A program made the translations under genes and the position numbers. Shown here piece by piece: positions 1 through 40,841 of a stretch of DNA of 40,841 nucleotides. Source of the DNA: a virus (Duplodnaviria > Caudoviricetes); the IMG/VR virus record IMGVR_UViG_3300005261_000007, positions 1 to 40,841 of that record. The stretch is one strand, 5' to 3'. Numbering within the stretch: position 1 is the first letter of the stretch; each line of letters begins with the position of its first letter. The notes beneath the pieces are model-generated. The model was given only the letters and a program-made list of their open reading frames with translations. It had not been told where the DNA came from and did not search any database.

Positions 1-60
1 CGGTAGAGCGCCGGACTGTTAATCCGTAGGTCCCTGGTTCGAGCCCAGGTCGGGGAGCCA
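1..60 (+). tRNA. trnN: tRNA-Asn(GTT), 5' end outside the window; integration target
   Basis: D-arm remnant GGTAGAGC, anticodon loop CTGTTAA (16-22, GTT at 18-20), T-arm CCTGG-TTCGAGC-CCAGG, acceptor strand CGGGGA followed by G-CCA ending at 60. Confidence 0.95.
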
Positions 61-61
61 A
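13..61 (+). repeat. attL common segment (49 bp)
   Basis: GGACTGTTAATCCGTAGGTCCCTGGTTCGAGCCCAGGTCGGGGAGCCAA, identical to 40780-40828. Confidence 0.97.
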
Positions 62-108
62 ATTCTTCAGACACCACCAGCGAAGTGGATACTAACATGC
101 CGCTGGAG

Positions 109-132
109 TGTGTCCAAGAATGTGCCCAAAAG
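109..132 (+). promoter_or_regulatory. Putative integrase arm-type sites (2 x 12-bp period)
   Basis: TGTGTCCAAGAA TGTGCCCAAAAG; the same motif occurs three times at 40644-40679, on the other phage arm. Confidence 0.7.
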
Positions 133-1562: not shown

Positions 1563-3989
1563 ATGGACACTAATCAAACAGTCCCGAGCGCAGACCGCAC
1601 CAAAGCCCAACTTGACCTTGAAGAGGAGTGCCTGGCCCTTGGCATCGAACGATACCGGGCCTCTATGGAAGCCGGGGAAGACACCTTAGTTCCCGGCCAG
1701 CGCCTCATCAAGGCAGCCGTGTTGCCTCTCTCCCAGGTCATCCAGGAGATGATTGAAGAGGCCCTAGCAGGTAAGGCTGGCCGCTCCGCTGGTATTGCCA
1801 AGTTCCTGGCGCAGTTTGAACCGGAACGAGCAGCCTTCATTACCGCCCGGCGGGTCATCCATTCGATAACCGACAAGATCATGCTTTCCACGGCAGCTAT
1901 TCAGGTATCCAACGCCCTGGAAGACTGCCTCAACTTTGACGCCCTGGAGGAGCAAGCCCCTAAGCTCTACAAGCAACTCCAGCGCAAGATTCAGAACAGT
2001 AACGACGAGGGCTACCGCCACATCGTAATGAAGCGCCAGCAGGAGTTCGCTGGTGTCGCCACCATCAAGTGGGGCATCACCGAGAAAACCCGCCTGGGCA
2101 CCACCCTGATCCAGCTAATGGCTGATTCCACGGGCCTCATTGAGATTGTTAAGGTGTCCCGTGGGCACAACGATAACCCCTTCATGGTTACCGCTTCGGC
2201 AAAGACCTTGATGTGGCTGGAGCAGGCTCACGCCCGGTGCGAACTGATGCAGCCCACCTTCATGCCTATGGTGTGTCGCCCTCGCCCCTGGACGGGTCCC
2301 TTTGGTGGCGGCTACCTGACCAAGGAGCTGCGCTTCCCGCTCATCAAGACCGGAAACAAGAACTACCTGGAGGAGCTGAAGAGTTGGGTTATGCCTGATG
2401 TCTATCGGGCCATCAACGCCCTCCAGGACACCGCATGGACCATCAACAAGGGCATCCTCCGGGTGTCCCGTGAGATTTGGGATGGCGGTGGCCGGGTGGG
2501 TAAGCTGCCTAGCCGGGAACCGATCCCGCTCCCTCCGAAGAACCACGACCCGGAAACCGAACCGGAGAAGCACAAGGCTTGGAAGCGGGCTGCCGCCCAG
2601 GTGTATGAAGAGAATATCCGACTGGTATCCAAGCGCCTTGGCGTAGCGACCAAGCTGCACCTGGCGGAGAAGATGGAGAAATACGAGCAGTTCCATTTCG
2701 TCCATGCCCTTGACTGGCGAGGCCGTGCCTACCCGGTGTCCTCCATGCTTAACCCCCAAGGGGATGACCTGGCGAAGGCCCTCCTGATGTTCTCTGAAGG
2801 GAAACCTTTGGGCGAGAACGGGGCAACCTGGCTGGCCGTTCATGGTGCTAACTGCTTCGGTGTCGATAAGGTCCCGTTCGGTGACCGCGTGAAGTGGGTG
2901 ATGGAACACCGGGAGCAAATCCTGGAGTGCGCCTTCAACCCCACGGACGGGACCCTCTTCTGGGCACAGGCAGACAGCCCCTACATGTTCCTGGCCTTCT
3001 GTTTCGAGTGGGCTGGCTACATCATGCAAGGACCGGCCTTCGTCAGCCACCTCCCGGTGTCCTGGGATGGCACCTGTAACGGCCTCCAGAACTTCTCCGC
3101 CATGCTGCGGGATGAAGTGGGCGGTAAGGCCGTTAATCTGGTCCCTTCAGATAAGCCTTCAGATGTCTATCGGGCTGTTGCTGAAGTTGCCCAGGTTGGT
3201 ATCGACATCGACGCCGAGAACGGGAATGAAGTAGCCAAACGCTGGGTGGGCCGGATGACCCGCAAGTGGTCCAAACGGAACACCATGACGGTCCCTTACG
3301 GGGTGTCCAAGTTCGGGATGCGTAACCAGCTCCGTGAAGAGTTCTCAAAGCTCCGCATGGAAGGTGACGAATCCGCCCCCGCACGGGAAACCGAGATGGA
3401 GGACGCTGCCTACATCGCTGAGAAGAACTATGAGGCCATCGGCCAGGTAGTCATCGCGGCACGGAGGGCAATGGACTGGCTCATGGAGGCCGCGAAGGTT
3501 GCCGCTTCAGATGGCCTTCCGGTGCGCTGGACGACTCCGAGCGGGCTTCTTGTACAGCAATCCTATCGGGTAGCTGAAGGGAAAGTGCTGGATTTCAATG
3601 TTGCAGGACGCCGCTACCAGCTAACCCTCAACATCACCGGCCACAAGATTGACAAACGAGCCCAGAAGAACGGCATCTCGCCGAACTTCATCCACTCGCT
3701 GGATGCGGCGCACATGATGCGTACCGTTAATTACTCGCTGGATGTTGGCCTTAGCTCCTTCTGCATGATCCACGACTCCTATGGGTCCCATGCTGCGGAC
3801 GCTGAAGAACTCTCCTATCATCTCCGCCGCGCCTTTGTGGATCAGTACAAGGGTGACGTACTGCGGGACTTCCGGGACCAACTAGCGGGGCAACTTCCGG
3901 AGGAACTGGCAGCCGAACTTCCACCCCTCCCACCGATGGGAACCTTGGACCTGGATCAAGTGATGCAGTCCGACTATTTCTTCGCCTAA
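1563..3989 (+). CDS. gp1: Single-subunit DNA-directed RNA polymerase (T7 gp1 homolog)
   Basis: 808 aa; DWRGRAY, motif A DGTCNGLQ, motif B RKWSKRNTMTVPYG, PNFIHSLDA, motif C IHDSY, C-terminal YFFA. Confidence 0.98.
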   Translation: MDTNQTVPSADRTKAQLDLEEECLALGIERYRASMEAGEDTLVPGQRLIKAAVLPLSQVIQEMIEEALAGKAGRSAGIAKFLAQFEPERAAFITARRVIHSITDKIMLSTAAIQVSNALEDCLNFDALEEQAPKLYKQLQRKIQNSNDEGYRHIVMKRQQEFAGVATIKWGITEKTRLGTTLIQLMADSTGLIEIVKVSRGHNDNPFMVTASAKTLMWLEQAHARCELMQPTFMPMVCRPRPWTGPFGGGYLTKELRFPLIKTGNKNYLEELKSWVMPDVYRAINALQDTAWTINKGILRVSREIWDGGGRVGKLPSREPIPLPPKNHDPETEPEKHKAWKRAAAQVYEENIRLVSKRLGVATKLHLAEKMEKYEQFHFVHALDWRGRAYPVSSMLNPQGDDLAKALLMFSEGKPLGENGATWLAVHGANCFGVDKVPFGDRVKWVMEHREQILECAFNPTDGTLFWAQADSPYMFLAFCFEWAGYIMQGPAFVSHLPVSWDGTCNGLQNFSAMLRDEVGGKAVNLVPSDKPSDVYRAVAEVAQVGIDIDAENGNEVAKRWVGRMTRKWSKRNTMTVPYGVSKFGMRNQLREEFSKLRMEGDESAPARETEMEDAAYIAEKNYEAIGQVVIAARRAMDWLMEAAKVAASDGLPVRWTTPSGLLVQQSYRVAEGKVLDFNVAGRRYQLTLNITGHKIDKRAQKNGISPNFIHSLDAAHMMRTVNYSLDVGLSSFCMIHDSYGSHAADAEELSYHLRRAFVDQYKGDVLRDFRDQLAGQLPEELAAELPPLPPMGTLDLDQVMQSDYFFA

Positions 3990-4008
3990 ATTCACCCGAT
4001 ATCGGGTA
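3989..4008 (+). promoter_or_regulatory. Operator-like site O3
   Basis: AATTCACCCGATATCGGGTA contains the perfect 14-bp palindrome ACCCGATATCGGGT, between the RNAP stop and the ligase RBS. Confidence 0.72.
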
Positions 4009-4025
4009 TCAGATAGGAGCAACAA

Positions 4026-33722: not shown

Positions 33723-35435
33723 TTGCCTCCGCATGACCTGTCTCCGGGTGCATCGGCAGTAGCTCAAGCCTATGACCCGGTACGGGGGGACTTCCGGAAC
33801 TTCGTGTTCCTGGTGTGGCAACACCTCAACCTCCCGACCCCCACCCCGATCCAGTTTGACATCTCGCAGTACCTCCAGCACGGTCCCCGCCGTCGCGTTA
33901 TCGAAGCCTTCCGGGGCATCGGTAAATCCTGGCTTACTGCTGCCTATGTCCTCTGGCGACTCTACATAAACCCCGAAGAACGCATCCTGGTAGTGTCCGC
34001 ATCGAAGGACCGGGCGGATGCCTTCTCCGTGTTCCTGAAGCGGCTCATTGATGAGATGCCGCTACTCAACCACCTCCGCCCCCGGCCTGGTCAGCGTGAT
34101 TCCAACATCGCCTTTGACGTAGGCCCAAGCTCCGCCCACCAGGCACCTTCAGTTCGCTCTGTAGGTATCACCGGGCAGCTTACCGGGGGCCGCGCTACGA
34201 TCATCATTGCGGATGACGTTGAGGTTCCCAAGAACTCCCTGACCCAAGCCATGCGTGACAAGCTGGCCGAGCTGGTGAAGGAGTTTGACGCCGTGTTGGT
34301 TCCTGGCGGGGAAATCATCTACCTGGGCACTCCCCAGACTGAGATGAGCCTTTACAACGCCCTTCCGAATCGTGGCTACGAAATCCGGGTGTGGCCTGCA
34401 AGGTATCCAACACCCGAGCAGAGGACCCGCTATGGCTCCAGGCTGGCCCCGATCATTGGGCGGCTACTGGACCAGGACCCGACCCTTGTAGGGCGCTCCA
34501 CGGACCAAGGACGGTTCTCTGACAGGGACCTCATGGAGCGGGAGTTCTCTTACGGGCGCTCTGGCTTTGCCATGCAATTCATGTTGGACACGGCAGCCTC
34601 AGACACTGACCGCTACCCGCTGAAGTTGTCTGACCTCGTTATCATGTCCCTCAATGCTGAACTCGCCCCCGTGCGGGTGGCCTGGGGCTCTGGTCCCGAG
34701 CAGGTTGTCTCTGACCTCCCCAACGTGGGCCTCCAGGGGGACCGCCTCCACCGGCCTATGTTCCTCGCTAAGGAGTTCGCAGACTTCCAAGGGTGCGTCA
34801 TGGCGATTGACCCTGCTGGCCGGGGTGGTGACGAGCTGGCCTATGCCATCGTAGCCATGCTCAATGGTGTCCTGTACGTCCTCGACGTAGGGGGCATGAA
34901 GGGCGGCTACGCGGATGACAACCTGGCGGAGCTGGCACGACTGGCGAAGCGTTACAAGGCCAAGGAGATCATCGTAGAGTCCAACTTCGGGGACGGTATG
35001 TTCCTCAAGCTGCTGACTCCCTTCCTGGTCCGTACCTACCCGGTGACCACTTCAGAGGTCCGCCACAACACCCAGAAGGAAGCCCGTATCATTGACACGC
35101 TGGAGCCCGTGATGAACCAACACCGTTTGGTCATTGATGAGGCCCTGGTGCGGAAGGACTACGAGAACTACAATGACCACCCGGCAGACCACGCCCACAA
35201 GTACCAGCTCTTGTTCCAGCTCACTCGCATCACCCGTGAGAGACAAGCCCTGGCGCATGATGACCGCCTGGATGCCCTGGCTATCGCTGTAGCCTATTGG
35301 GTGGAGCAGATGGACAAGGATGTGCAGCAGTCAATCGCTGAACACAAGTCCAACCTCCTGGACATGGAGCTGGCTAAGTTCGCCTCCCAGGTCCTTGGAG
35401 AGGCCCCTGCGGGCACCAACTGGATGGGCATGTAG
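33723..35435 (+). CDS. gp19: Terminase large subunit (gp19 homolog)
   Basis: EAFRGIGKSW, IIIADDVE, YLGTPQ, AIDPAGRGGDE, ESNFGDG, HDDRLDALA. Confidence 0.97.
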   Translation: MPPHDLSPGASAVAQAYDPVRGDFRNFVFLVWQHLNLPTPTPIQFDISQYLQHGPRRRVIEAFRGIGKSWLTAAYVLWRLYINPEERILVVSASKDRADAFSVFLKRLIDEMPLLNHLRPRPGQRDSNIAFDVGPSSAHQAPSVRSVGITGQLTGGRATIIIADDVEVPKNSLTQAMRDKLAELVKEFDAVLVPGGEIIYLGTPQTEMSLYNALPNRGYEIRVWPARYPTPEQRTRYGSRLAPIIGRLLDQDPTLVGRSTDQGRFSDRDLMEREFSYGRSGFAMQFMLDTAASDTDRYPLKLSDLVIMSLNAELAPVRVAWGSGPEQVVSDLPNVGLQGDRLHRPMFLAKEFADFQGCVMAIDPAGRGGDELAYAIVAMLNGVLYVLDVGGMKGGYADDNLAELARLAKRYKAKEIIVESNFGDGMFLKLLTPFLVRTYPVTTSEVRHNTQKEARIIDTLEPVMNQHRLVIDEALVRKDYENYNDHPADHAHKYQLLFQLTRITRERQALAHDDRLDALAIAVAYWVEQMDKDVQQSIAEHKSNLLDMELAKFASQVLGEAPAGTNWMGM

Positions 35436-35512: not shown

Positions 35513-35784
35513 AGGGGACCCCTTCCTGATTCCCTTCCAGATACTCTATAGATGCACCTTTAGATACATCTATAGAGTCCCCTTTAGGTAACCTTTAGAT
35601 GGACTGTAGAGGTCCTGGCAGGGGCTAGGTGGCTTACTGCGTACTCAGACCTCCCTACCCAGACATAAATGGTACAAAAATCTGAAGGGTCTATCGTTAC
35701 CCTGGCCTCCCGAGTTTCCCCCCGGTGGGTGGCTGGCGCTGGGCCGCCTGGGATGGCCTCTTTAGGGCCTCGTTCGGGTGTCTA

Positions 35785-35857
35785 TTAGGCACAGTCATGG
35801 GCACATACCCTGCTAAGTCATTGATTCATAAGGCAACCCGACGGATACCCTATCCCT
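35785..35857 (-). other. Second att-like recombination site (core, IHF box, arm pair)
   Basis: Minus strand: AGGGA-TAGGGTA-TCCGTCGG (35857-35838), AATCAATGACTTA (35826-35814), TGTGCCCATGACTGTGCCTAA (35805-35785). Confidence 0.68.
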
Positions 35858-36126
35858 AGGCTGTGCCTTCTGGCCTCTTTCGGCCCTCTTCTAGCCTCTA
35901 TTGGTGCATCTTCGGGTGTCCTGGTAGGGGCTTTTTGCTTCTCATGTCGATAACTTTCGATATGTCTGTCTCCTCTCCCCTGTTTTTTCATAGTCATTGC
36001 CTATCGCCTTCAGTTGCCTCCATAGTTTCCACCTAACGACACACCCTCTTGACTGATCCTTTAGATTCCTCTATCACGCGCCCATCACTAAGAAGCCTCT
36101 CTAGATGCCCTAATGGCATGTTTAGC

Positions 36127-36155
36127 TTGACACGATACCCGATAACGGGTAGTAT
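36127..36155 (+). promoter_or_regulatory. Host sigma70 early promoter with an operator (O5) in the spacer
   Basis: TTGACA-17 bp-TAGTAT; near-palindrome TACCCGATAACGGGTA at 36136-36151. Confidence 0.85.
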
Positions 36156-36746: not shown

Positions 36747-37313
36747 ATGAACAACGAACAAAGAAGAGAATTAGCCCTGTCTATCGCTGCCGCACTGGGC
36801 TGGAGCGTGGAACAACCGCATGAGGGCAGCGCTAACTACTTCCGCCTGATCTCTCCGGATGGCGTAGTCATCTCCATGAGCATTGGCGGGTATGCGTTCA
36901 AGGGTCGTATCTCCTTCGGATGTGCCTACCCTTGGCACCAAACGGACCAGTATGGAGGCACCCGCCACACGTTCCAACGTGATTTTGACCGCTCCCTGGC
37001 TTACAACGTGGCCCCTTGGGATGGAATCACCGTGGCAGACACCAAGAGCCCCGAACAGATAGCCAAGGACATCAACAGAAGATTCCTTCCGGTCTATCTC
37101 CCTTTGTGGGCTGAGGCGGTCAAGTATTGTGCAGAGAAGGCCGCCTACTGGGTCAAGCGTAATGGCGCTGAAGAGGCCATCAAGGAGGCAATCAAGGGGA
37201 CACCACTCCGGATCGACTTCATGGGCAGCAATTATGCCCGCCTGGAGATTGACGCCTCTCCGGAGCTGGCTAAGGTCATTGCAGACGCCATCCGGGGCTA
37301 CAAGTCCGCCTAA
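36747..37313 (+). CDS. Early protein (188 aa), hypothetical
   Basis: AAGGAG RBS; MNNEQRRELA... Confidence 0.78.
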   Translation: MNNEQRRELALSIAAALGWSVEQPHEGSANYFRLISPDGVVISMSIGGYAFKGRISFGCAYPWHQTDQYGGTRHTFQRDFDRSLAYNVAPWDGITVADTKSPEQIAKDINRRFLPVYLPLWAEAVKYCAEKAAYWVKRNGAEEAIKEAIKGTPLRIDFMGSNYARLEIDASPELAKVIADAIRGYKSA

Positions 37314-37332
37314 ATTCACCCTTTATCGGGTA
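37313..37332 (+). promoter_or_regulatory. Operator-like site O4
   Basis: AATTCACCCTTTATCGGGTA; preceded by GCCTA and followed by TC, as in O3. Confidence 0.65.
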
Positions 37333-37410
37333 TCGGATGATTAATCCAAGGGGCTGCCCTTCGCGGCCTCTTCAGTTAATCCAGTCGTATCACCTACAAG
37401 GAGCAACACC

Positions 37411-39191: not shown

Positions 39192-39527
39192 ATGAAGAAT
39201 CAACTCCGCGCCTTGCGCCTGTGCCTGGACGTAATCCGGAATCACCTTCCGGGGTATGACGCTAAATTCACCATGCGGGCCGCCGAACTCTTGATTTTCC
39301 TTCTGGAAAGGGAAGTAGAGCCTGCTTCGTACCCGGCCATTAAGCAACACACGGGCATAACGCAAAATAAGGCGTCCGACATGGCTACCAAGCTGGTTGC
39401 CTACGGTGTTGTGGTCAAGACCGTGGATAGTGAGGGCCTGGTTGCTTACGCGCCTTCGGAGGCCGGTAAGGCACTCCGGGATGCACTCAACAAACGACTT
39501 GGAGGAAGTGAGCATGAAAGCCCGTAA
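39192..39527 (+). CDS. MarR-like winged-helix protein (regulator or recombination directionality factor)
   Basis: AELLIFL...SYPAIKQHTGITQNKASDMATKLVAYGVV...YAPSEAGKAL; overlaps the int start. Confidence 0.75.
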   Translation: MKNQLRALRLCLDVIRNHLPGYDAKFTMRAAELLIFLLEREVEPASYPAIKQHTGITQNKASDMATKLVAYGVVVKTVDSEGLVAYAPSEAGKALRDALNKRLGGSEHESP

Positions 39528-40841
39528 CGGCATCTGGCAATCTGACTTCTACCTGTCCAACGGGGACCGGGTTCGGGAGTCATTAGGGACCCGTGACAAG
39601 GCCCTGGCCCAGCGTAAAGAGCGGGAGCTTCAGGTGACTATGGAGGCTGGCCTGCTGGGCATCGTCAGTCCCATTCCCGCCCCCGAAAGGAGCCCCAGGA
39701 AGGCCCCTGTAACCACCGCCAGTGTCCGCGCAGTAGCCCAAGCAGGCATCACCCTAGAGGCCGCCTTCAAGCGGGCTATGCGTGAGTATGAGCCTTGGCG
39801 GGCCAGCACCTCACAATCCACCATCAACGCCAACTACGGGCACGTGGTCAGCTACTTCAAGAAGGACCGCGACCTAGCTACCCTCACGCGGGATGACACG
39901 CTGGAGTACGTGGAGAAGCTACGGGATGAAGAGGAGCTGAGTGGCAGCACGATCAACCAACGCCTCTCCCTGGTAAGCGTCCTTCTGAGCCAGGCCGAAG
40001 TCTGGACAAAGGGAGCCATCCAGCCATTCAAGATGCCCCGCCAGAAGGTCCGGAAGGGCCGCATTCGGGTCCTATCCTATGATGAGGAGTTCAAGGTAAT
40101 CCGCTACCTGAAGAAGTCCAAGCGGGCACGCGGGAAGGATGAAGACTTCGCCGAGCTGGTCAAGTTCCTTGTCGACACCGGCTTCCGCCTGGGAGAAGCC
40201 CTCCGCCTGCGCTCTGTAGATGTCGATTGGGATAACGGTATGGTCCCCGCCTGGGAAACCAAAGGCGACGAACCCCGCCAGGTCCCCATGACGAAGCGAG
40301 TTAAGCAACTGCTGGAGGCCCGCCAGGATATGGAGCTGCCCTTCGGGATGTTCTCTATCGACTCAGCAGATGACCATTGGGAAATCATGCGTAAGGGCCT
40401 GAAGGTGGATGTAGAACGGGACCCTGAGTTCGTGATTCACGCCCTCCGCCACACGTGCGCTAGTCGTCTGGTCGCCAGCGGTATGGATGCCTTCCGGGTC
40501 CAGAAGTGGATGGGCCACAAGAACATTGCCACCACTCAGAAATATGTCACCCTATACGGGTCCGACCTTCACCAACTGGCAAGCGCCCTTGACGCCCGCC
40601 GACTGGAAGCAGCCAAAAAGCTACCTATAGGGGGTCTGCCGGGAGTGCCTAAAATTGTGCCCAGGACTGTGCCTAAAATGACACGTGTGGAGGACATCCG
40701 GGTTCCAGTAGGTCTAGCCGAAAGCCTTGTCCCACAAGGGAACCGACCGAATCAACGAACCGATGAACCTGTAGATGAGGGACTGTTAATCCGTAGGTCC
40801 CTGGTTCGAGCCCAGGTCGGGGAGCCAAGAATATCGCGGCC
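39514..40841 (+). CDS. int: Tyrosine integrase; reading frame runs through attR with no stop in the window
   Basis: GGAGG RBS; MKARNGIWQ...RESLGTRD arm-binding-like N-terminus; DTGFRLGE, ETKGD, HALRH, MGH, KY catalytic residues. Confidence 0.96.
   Translation, partial: MKARNGIWQSDFYLSNGDRVRESLGTRDKALAQRKERELQVTMEAGLLGIVSPIPAPERSPRKAPVTTASVRAVAQAGITLEAAFKRAMREYEPWRASTSQSTINANYGHVVSYFKKDRDLATLTRDDTLEYVEKLRDEEELSGSTINQRLSLVSVLLSQAEVWTKGAIQPFKMPRQKVRKGRIRVLSYDEEFKVIRYLKKSKRARGKDEDFAELVKFLVDTGFRLGEALRLRSVDVDWDNGMVPAWETKGDEPRQVPMTKRVKQLLEARQDMELPFGMFSIDSADDHWEIMRKGLKVDVERDPEFVIHALRHTCASRLVASGMDAFRVQKWMGHKNIATTQKYVTLYGSDLHQLASALDARRLEAAKKLPIGGLPGVPKIVPRTVPKMTRVEDIRVPVGLAESLVPQGNRPNQRTDEPVDEGLLIRRSLVRAQVGEPRISR
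40644..40679 (+). promoter_or_regulatory. Putative integrase arm-type sites (3 x 12 bp)
   Basis: AGTGCCTAAAAT TGTGCCCAGGAC TGTGCCTAAAAT, about 100 bp from the core. Confidence 0.72.
40780..40828 (+). repeat. attR common segment (duplicated tRNA 3' part)
   Basis: Identical to 13-61; lacks the tRNA 5' half. Confidence 0.97.

What the first reader, a model, noticed from the sequence alone, without database searches (positions are those of the whole stretch)
35785..35857. A second, orthogonal att site in the predicted terminal-repeat region: the integrase may also circularise the linear genome
Seen: on the minus strand, 35857-35838 reads AGGGA-TAGGGTA-TCCGTCGG, whereas the real junction at 40778-40797 reads AGGGA-CTGTTAA-TCCGTAGG. 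The flanks match at 12 of 13 positions but the central 7 bp differ. Next comes a perfect IHF consensus (WATCAANNNNTTR: AATCAATGACTTA), then TGTGCCCATGACTGTGCCTAA, which matches the arm repeats at 40656-40676 at 20 of 21 positions. Established: lambda-family integrases use core, IHF and arm geometry and need identical 7-bp overlaps; T7-like virion DNA is linear with direct terminal repeats and must be circular to integrate; P1 uses Cre/loxP to circularise. Inference: this site could recombine only with a copy of itself, which exists if it lies within the terminal repeat or in a concatemer. One integrase could then do circularisation or resolution and integration at two non-cross-reacting sites. 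I am not aware of this being described.
Basis: partly seen in the sequence, partly recalled or inferred. Interest (0 to 1): 0.92.

Follow-up and report, generated by a model that had tools for sequence, protein, structure and literature searches.

The report
Integrase site inside T7-like terminal repeats
This T7-like prophage and dozens of integrase-carrying relatives have a second integrase docking site at the genome end, inside the terminal repeat wherever ends are mapped, which likely lets the same enzyme that integrates the phage first join its two ends into a circle.

Summary
The window is a complete T7-like prophage in tRNA-Asn. At 35785-35857 (-) it carries a one-armed, attL-like site: core, the window's only perfect IHF box, and two arms matching its own att arms at 20/21. 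The same fixed-spacing element lies between terL and int on this strand in 49 of 72 integrase-bearing loci (2 of 72 on the other strand). It is absent from 79 of 79 T7-clade loci, and 0 of 50 of those records have an integrase. Core flanks and arms co-vary with each phage's own att site; the 7-bp spacer was never identical to it (0 of 25). The site lies inside the mapped repeats of LUZ100, vRsoP-WF2/WM2/WR2 and (by eye) Pasto. This phage's own ends are inferred, not mapped. Cyanophages whose integrase lacks the arm domain carry a bare core instead. RsoP1EGY and BOESR1 keep an intact integrase and this site but have no other arm pair. Best reading (0.65): Int plus IHF recombine the two repeats to circularise incoming DNA. 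No binding or recombination was tested. I found no description in ten paper searches, but one key paper was not held.

The parts
35838..35857 (-). Core-type site: inverted repeat around a 7-bp spacer (spacer 35852-35846)
   Evidence: Flanks 12/13 identical to the attR core, spacer 2/7; pairing across the spacer conserved in relatives
35814..35826 (-). IHF consensus box, 19 nt after the spacer and 8 nt before arm 1
   Evidence: Only perfect match in the window; spacing; perfect box on this strand in 40 of 66 loci vs 5 on the other strand
35785..35805 (-). Two arm-type repeats, 12 nt apart
   Evidence: 20/21 to the attR arm pair; 0 of 2000 shuffles
35718..35723 (+). C-run that marks the left genome end in T7-like phages; puts the predicted left end at about 35692-35705 (inferred)
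   Evidence: The C-run starts 14-27 nt from the record start in LUZ100, ProddE, Pasto, BB8, vRsoP-WF2, P-SSP7 and HTVC019P; the window from 35703 resembles the first bases of LUZ100
35700..35940 (.). Predicted direct terminal repeat (inferred; right edge uncertain)
   Evidence: By analogy with mapped 244-281 bp repeats of relatives; not mapped for this phage
33723..35435 (+). Terminase large subunit, last late gene
   Evidence: PHROG 38, E 4e-119
36127..36155 (+). Sigma-70-like promoter in front of the early genes, about 270 nt from the core
   Evidence: 10 of 12 consensus match; 0.7 expected by chance, so weak
39514..40683 (+). Tyrosine integrase, about 389 aa, with a predicted N-terminal arm-binding domain and intact R-K-H-R-H-Y
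   Evidence: model with strands plus a helix at residues 1-46; aligns over 381 columns with lambda Int 1z1b; catalytic residues
40644..40676 (+). Three arm-type repeats of attR, inside the end of int
40778..40828 (+). attR core (spacer 40783-40789, the tRNA-Asn anticodon loop) and 49-bp duplication 40780-40828
   Evidence: Asn read from the GTT anticodon (ARAGORN finds no whole tRNA)
13..129 (+). attL: duplication 13-61 (spacer 16-22) and two arm repeats at 109 and 121

Best explanation
This is a conserved, one-armed (attL-like) site for the phage's own integrase and host IHF, predicted to lie inside the direct terminal repeat, and it likely lets the integrase recombine the two repeat copies of the incoming linear genome to make the circle that integration needs. 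Shown by sequence: the architecture, its conservation, co-variation of core flanks and arms with each phage's own att site, a spacer that differs from the att spacer, and its position inside mapped repeats of relatives. Inferred: Int, an early gene about 3.7 kb from the predicted left end, would be made before the right end enters. IHF would bend the DNA so that arm-bound Int reaches the core. Two identical sites in direct repeat would exchange strands across their identical spacers, releasing a unit circle and a repeat-length linear piece. The different spacer would keep this site from recombining with attP or attB. The reaction would be symmetric, so it could also act on concatemers or circles.
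For: Conservation: 49 of 72 integrase-bearing loci score above the control 99th percentile on this strand between terL and int, 2 of 72 on the other; 21 of 43 in the genome set, which supplied no seeds (one locus duplicates a seed). Positives span TerL identities down to 52%. Integrase link: 0 of 79 T7-clade loci, with no integrase in 50 of 50 records checked. Co-variation in 34 loci: arms 12.8 own vs 11.6 other, flanks 16.5 vs 15.0, 0 of 20000 permutations each. Own beats the nearest TerL neighbour 22:8 for flanks and 16:7 for arms. Spacer always 7 nt (fixed in the model), 41 distinct among 49 sites; the innermost pair switches together (33 A-T, 10 C-G) and the next pairs in 47 of 49. Inside mapped repeats: LUZ100 (core 161-145 of 244), vRsoP-WF2 (184-168 of 281; two copies per record in WF2, WM2, WR2), Pasto by eye (spacer 168-162 of 271). 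Architecture follows the enzyme: integrases of S-TIP37, P-SSP7 and HTVC019P lack the N-terminal domain and their left ends carry bare cores. Bare cores occur in 8 of 9 int+ versus 3 of 14 int- cyanophage loci. In RsoP1EGY and BOESR1 this is the only arm pair in the genome beside an intact integrase. IHF box to arm spacing is 8 nt, as in the lambda record.
Against: Nothing biochemical was tested. The window's own ends are unmapped. 23 of 72 integrase-bearing loci stay below threshold, 22 of them from bacterial genomes. Many alphaproteobacterial sites, LUZ100, Pasto and ProddE lack a good IHF box, and the model's top hit missed the Pasto and ProddE sites. L283 has a bare core but no integrase in a 98% complete record; L295 has an integrase elsewhere but no core at its marker. 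The 127-nt end repeat of the BB8 record covers the arms but not the core; this may be an assembly overlap (inference). Spacers show no selection for asymmetry (4 of 49 symmetric) or for extra distance from attP. The T7 control is one clade. An S-TIP37 integrase mutant grows lytically like wild type (PMC8776855, passages), so lytic growth there does not need the reaction. Homologous annealing of the repeats would give the same circle.
Confidence: 0.65

Rival explanations
1. Same chemistry, different job: Int uses the site on replicating DNA, to resolve concatemers or dimers into unit circles or to fuse excised circles into the head-to-tail multimers that T7-type packaging needs after induction.
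For: All architecture, co-variation and integrase-link results fit equally. An excised prophage has one repeat and must reach a concatemer (T7 packaging as summarised in PMC3350473). Phages described as lytic, with no lysogeny module, keep the integrase and the site (PMC8703784).
Against: Any site between terL and int would serve; the position inside the repeat is needed only for joining the two ends. T7-clade phages make concatemers without it.
Confidence: 0.2
2. A binding site only: Int and IHF build a complex on the repeat that protects the ends, blocks terminase or tunes early transcription, with no strand exchange.
For: A binding dimer would also keep an inverted repeat with a fixed spacer. 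No selection on spacer asymmetry is seen.
Against: The nearest promoter-like site is about 270 nt away. The first and last spacer bases are conserved symmetrically (T in 42, A in 48 of 49), as expected next to cleavage sites (inference). Integrases stay catalytically intact where no attP arms exist.
Confidence: 0.1
3. A packaging signal like lambda cosB, with IHF and terminase-binding repeats (cosB recalled, not looked up).
For: It lies at the genome end and has an IHF box with short repeats. Some T7-clade records have a lone IHF box after terL.
Against: The repeats match the phage's own att arms at 20/21 and co-vary with them. They are missing from T7-clade phages with the same motor and from phages whose integrase lacks the arm domain.
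Confidence: 0.03
4. Chance, or a dead relic of an old att duplication.
For: The site is weak or undetected in about a third of integrase-bearing loci.
Against: Shuffles, family-wide fixed spacing and paired changes across the core.
Confidence: 0.02

Closest known systems
Phage lambda attL (core, H' IHF site, P' arms) and the attL x attL 'bent-L' pathway
   Same: Order core-IHF-arms on one side only, 7-bp overlap, IHF box 8 nt before the first arm, arm-binding tyrosine integrase (att anatomy from a figure legend of PMC1807965).
   Different: Overlap-to-IHF distance is 19 nt, against 28 in lambda. Two arms, not three. It is not a prophage junction but a standing site in the terminal repeat with its own overlap. 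That two attL sites recombine with IHF is recalled; I saw only a reference title, and the paper was not held.
Phage P1 Cre/loxP (recalled)
   Same: Site-specific recombination between two copies in terminally redundant virion DNA makes the circle, and can resolve dimers.
   Different: P1 has a dedicated arm-less recombinase, permuted headful DNA and a plasmid prophage. Here the integrating enzyme itself would act, with arms and IHF, in a short fixed repeat. The bare cores of the cyanophages are the more loxP-like form.
Temperate or integrase-bearing Autographiviridae (LUZ100, ProddE, Pasto, pelagiphages, S-TIP37, P-SSP7)
   Same: Gene order, integrase between the early genes and RNA polymerase, tRNA targets, terminal repeats of 206-281 bp.
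   Different: The papers I searched do not mention circularisation ('circular' 0 times in PMC10134795, PMC8776855, PMC12361551 and 10.1101/410191) and the passages seen describe no site in the repeats.

Membership tests
Lambda-type att site (attL-like) | Inverted core sites around a 7-bp overlap, matching the phage's own att core | tested here: met
   12/13 flanks; paired changes and co-variation
Lambda-type att site (attL-like) | Arm-type repeats shared with attP, on one side only | tested here: met
   20/21; none on the far side
Lambda-type att site (attL-like) | IHF consensus between core and arms | tested here: met
   Met in the window; weak or absent in several relatives
Lambda-type att site (attL-like) | Cognate tyrosine integrase with arm-binding domain and intact active site | tested here: met
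   (the arm domain is a predicted fold)
Lambda-type att site (attL-like) | Bound and recombined by Int | not testable with these tools
   Needs footprinting and a recombination assay
True attL, attR or second attP for integration | Overlap identical to attB, at a phage-host junction, or arms on both sides | tested here: not met
   Overlap 2/7 identical, internal to the prophage, one arm
loxP-type circularisation site | Two copies in direct repeat in virion DNA | tested here: inconclusive
   Met in relatives; inferred for this phage
loxP-type circularisation site | Dedicated arm-less recombinase without accessory sites | tested here: not met
   The single integrase has an N-terminal domain and the site has arms and IHF; it may work like loxP but is not one
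T7-like (Autographiviridae) phage | Single-subunit RNA polymerase and T7-like replication, head, tail and terminase genes in one orientation | tested here: met

The most novel reading that the evidence does not exclude
Integrase-bearing T7-like phages share a family-wide, integrase-driven circularisation step built into their terminal repeats. One tyrosine recombinase works two non-cross-reacting sites: with arms and IHF in freshwater, soil and enteric-type hosts, and as a bare loxP-like core in marine cyanophages. End-joining is the more persistent job, which explains why 'strictly lytic' phages such as RsoP1EGY, vRsoP and BOESR1 keep an intact integrase with no attP arms.
Probability: 0.5. 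Interest if true: 0.93.

Novelty: new variant of a known kind. Interest (0 to 1): 0.86.

Why it matters
How linear, blunt-ended T7-like genomes become circular before integrating is left open in the papers I read. This gives a precise, cheap test, including in S-TIP37, where integrase and attP mutants already exist. Over half of marine Autographiviridae populations encode an integrase (625 of 1143, PMC12361551). It would also change how an integrase in a therapy or biocontrol phage is read: it may join ends rather than signal lysogeny. It would be a natural use of one-armed attL-type recombination, and a natural source of paired, non-cross-reacting sites for one enzyme.

Tried and rejected
Mapping this phage's ends: only four small-share runs kept as contigs. 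Contigs cannot show ends, so a related contig stopping at 35929 is not used as evidence. The rigid matrix under-called genome prophages (10 of 43), so a model with flexible spacing was built and the search widened to the whole terL-int stretch (there seeds were scored by a model that includes them). L084, L085, L073 and L021 were left out of the seeds for lack of an arm pair by eye. The co-variation tests used only loci scoring 15 or more, dropped L176, L184, L185 and L228 (duplicates or cut), L034 (no catalytic motif found) and four loci with under 300 nt: 34 loci. The overlap test used the 25 of 38 with an automatically found tRNA-type core; some calls (L056, L177, probably L223, L224) look wrong and were kept. 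Direct flank matches of the P-SSP7 and HTVC019P bare cores to attP were 10 of 16, no better than chance. CRP-114, HTVC105P, HTVC109P and HTVC201P records do not start at the genome end, so they were uninformative. Boeckman et al. 2022 (temperate T7-like phages) and Segall 1998 were not held; either could bear on novelty or mechanism. Paper supplements were not read. Earlier scan notes gave nothing on this. The host was not identified.

Full report
The window. It is one complete T7-like prophage: RNA polymerase, replication, head, tail and terminase genes all on the + strand, then early genes and a tyrosine integrase. A 49-bp duplication of a tRNA 3' half bounds it (13-61, 40780-40828), and the crossover spacer is the Asn anticodon loop. 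Arm repeats lie at 40644, 40656, 40668 and at 109, 121. The integrase (39514-40683) has all six catalytic residues. Its model shows an N-terminal strand-and-helix domain, a linker, then core-binding and catalytic domains, and it aligns over 381 columns with lambda Int.

The observation. Shuffles reach the arm match in 0 of 2000 and the core match in 2 of 2000. The site has arms on one side only, so it looks like an attL, not an attP. The IHF box is 8 nt from the first arm, as in the lambda record; spacer-to-IHF is 19 nt against 28, about one helical turn less (inference).

Conservation. Among 66 loci with 1300 nt after terL (window included, not de-replicated), 40 have a perfect IHF box on this strand, 5 on the other, and 12 of 580 control strands. 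Aligning on the box revealed the same core and arm pair at fixed distances. A flexible model, scored leave-one-out for seeds, put 54 of 138 loci above the best of 902 control windows, in 19 of 61 clusters at 75% TerL identity. Over the whole terL-int stretch, 49 of 72 integrase-bearing loci pass the control 99th percentile (28 of 29 viral, 21 of 43 from bacterial genomes) against 2 of 72 on the other strand; 45 of the 49 are followed by the G-run that marks the genome end. A relative about 95% identical, seen in two runs of one study, shows one listed change in 35785-35860 and nine in 35861-35902; 12 of its 14 differences were listed.

Link to the integrase. Complete relatives carry an integrase in 26 of 27 records; the exception, L078, has no site. 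T7-clade loci score at background in 79 of 79, and 0 of the 50 records checked, of 80 fetched, have an integrase. That is one clade, so one contrast. A second comes from cyanophages. The integrases of S-TIP37, P-SSP7 and HTVC019P have only 3-6 residues before the core-binding domain, and their left ends show a bare inverted repeat with a 7-nt spacer and no arms or IHF box. In P-SSP7 it lies inside the experimentally mapped 206-bp repeat (PMC3350473, parts 1-2 of 3 read). Near the end marker such cores occur in 8 of 9 int+ and 3 of 14 int- loci, background 224 of 1522 windows (marker found in 23 of 36 loci; six of the eight came from the P-SSP7 integrase search, five of them 95% or more identical). 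Counter-cases: L283 has the core but no integrase, and L295 has an integrase but no core.

Co-variation. In 34 loci each terminal site resembles its own att region more than others': 0 of 20000 permutations for arms and for flanks. It also beats its own shuffled region, and the nearest neighbour's region 22:8 and 16:7. Phages that target tRNA-Leu(GAG) have AGC-spacer-GCT at both sites; those at Asn, Lys or Cys have GGA-spacer-TCC. The spacer does not follow: 0 of 25 identical, at most 5 of 7, with 41 different spacers among 49 sites. It is not more different than chance, and L030 (score 8, outside that test) differs from its att spacer at one base in the reverse orientation, which hints at origin by duplication of the att core.

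Inside the repeat? LUZ100: 244-bp repeat (record and passage of PMC10134795), core 161-145, arms to 88, best hit in the first 1500 nt but with a weak IHF box. vRsoP-WF2, WM2, WR2: two copies per record, under 'redundant terminal repeat', ends Sanger-confirmed. Pasto (PhageTerm, 271 bp) and ProddE (predicted, 271 bp): core and arms found by eye at the same 40-41 nt spacing; the model's top hit missed both. Lo5R7ANS has the element at its left end, with no repeat annotated. BB8 has it at 175-103, but the record's end repeat is 127 nt and excludes the core. For this window the marker puts the left end near 35692-35705, so the core lies 153-166 nt in, within any repeat of the relatives' size. That is inference; no raw reads exist.

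Integrase without attP. In RsoP1EGY and BOESR1 the terminal pair is the only match to their arm pair in the genome, no tRNA-type core lies near int, and the integrase is intact. The vRsoP paper notes the integrase but no lysogeny module (passages). BB8 keeps arms after int but no tRNA arm. A non-tRNA or diverged attP is not excluded.

Mechanism. Lambda-type integrases need 7 bp of identity between partners (PMC1807965 figure legend), so this site can pair only with itself. Two copies in direct repeat exist in virion DNA and in concatemers. I commit to circularisation on entry (0.65), because only end-joining requires the site to be inside the repeat. The same chemistry on concatemers or excised circles is the main rival (0.2). 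Binding without exchange gets 0.1. The product equals that of homologous annealing, so sequence data cannot show the reaction. An S-TIP37 int mutant has normal lytic fitness (PMC8776855, passages).

Novelty. Ten searches found no description. Term searches in four papers on integrating T7-like phages found 'circular' 0 times. The most relevant subscription paper was not held and no supplements were read. It would work like P1 loxP (recalled) but is built like lambda attL and belongs to neither: a new variant of a known kind. Interest 0.86.

Noticed in passing
window:37411-37989: Pentapeptide-repeat gene among the early genes: about 16 or more tandem 15-nt units.
   Followed up: no
window:139, 1466, 5119, 7660, 16931, 35494, 40617: Repeated AAAACCTACCT[AC]TAG motif, likely the phage RNA polymerase promoter; one copy lies inside the end of int, just before the attR arms.
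   Followed up: no
window:271-308, 1527-1564, 3977-4014, 37301-37338, 36136-36151: Repeated GATATCGG or TATCGGGTATC elements before early genes and RNA polymerase, possible repressor operators; no classical repressor gene was identified, and the gene after attL is a KilA-N protein.
   Followed up: no
L031 (RsoP1EGY), L093 (BOESR1), L091 (Pasto), L092 (BB8): Intact integrase and terminal site but no recognisable attP beside int.
   Followed up: partly
L264:51-71, L265:131-152, L258:57-73, L256:97-113: Bare inverted-repeat cores with 7-nt spacers at the left ends of S-TIP37, Syn5, P-SSP7 and HTVC019P; Syn5 has an integrase elsewhere.
   Followed up: partly
L098, L102-L106, L163, L164, about 483-494 nt after terL: Some integrase-less T7-clade phages have a lone perfect IHF box on the same strand, without core or arms; possibly a relic or a separate role.
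   Followed up: no
L209, after terL: A site-like hit (score 29) on the opposite strand, the only strong one in that orientation.
   Followed up: no
L038, L056, L058, L059, about 300 nt further from terL than the site: A second perfect IHF box on the same strand, towards the early genes, without arms.
   Followed up: no
L011 and L074, after int: No tRNA-type core after int although arms are present; these may use a non-tRNA target.
   Followed up: no
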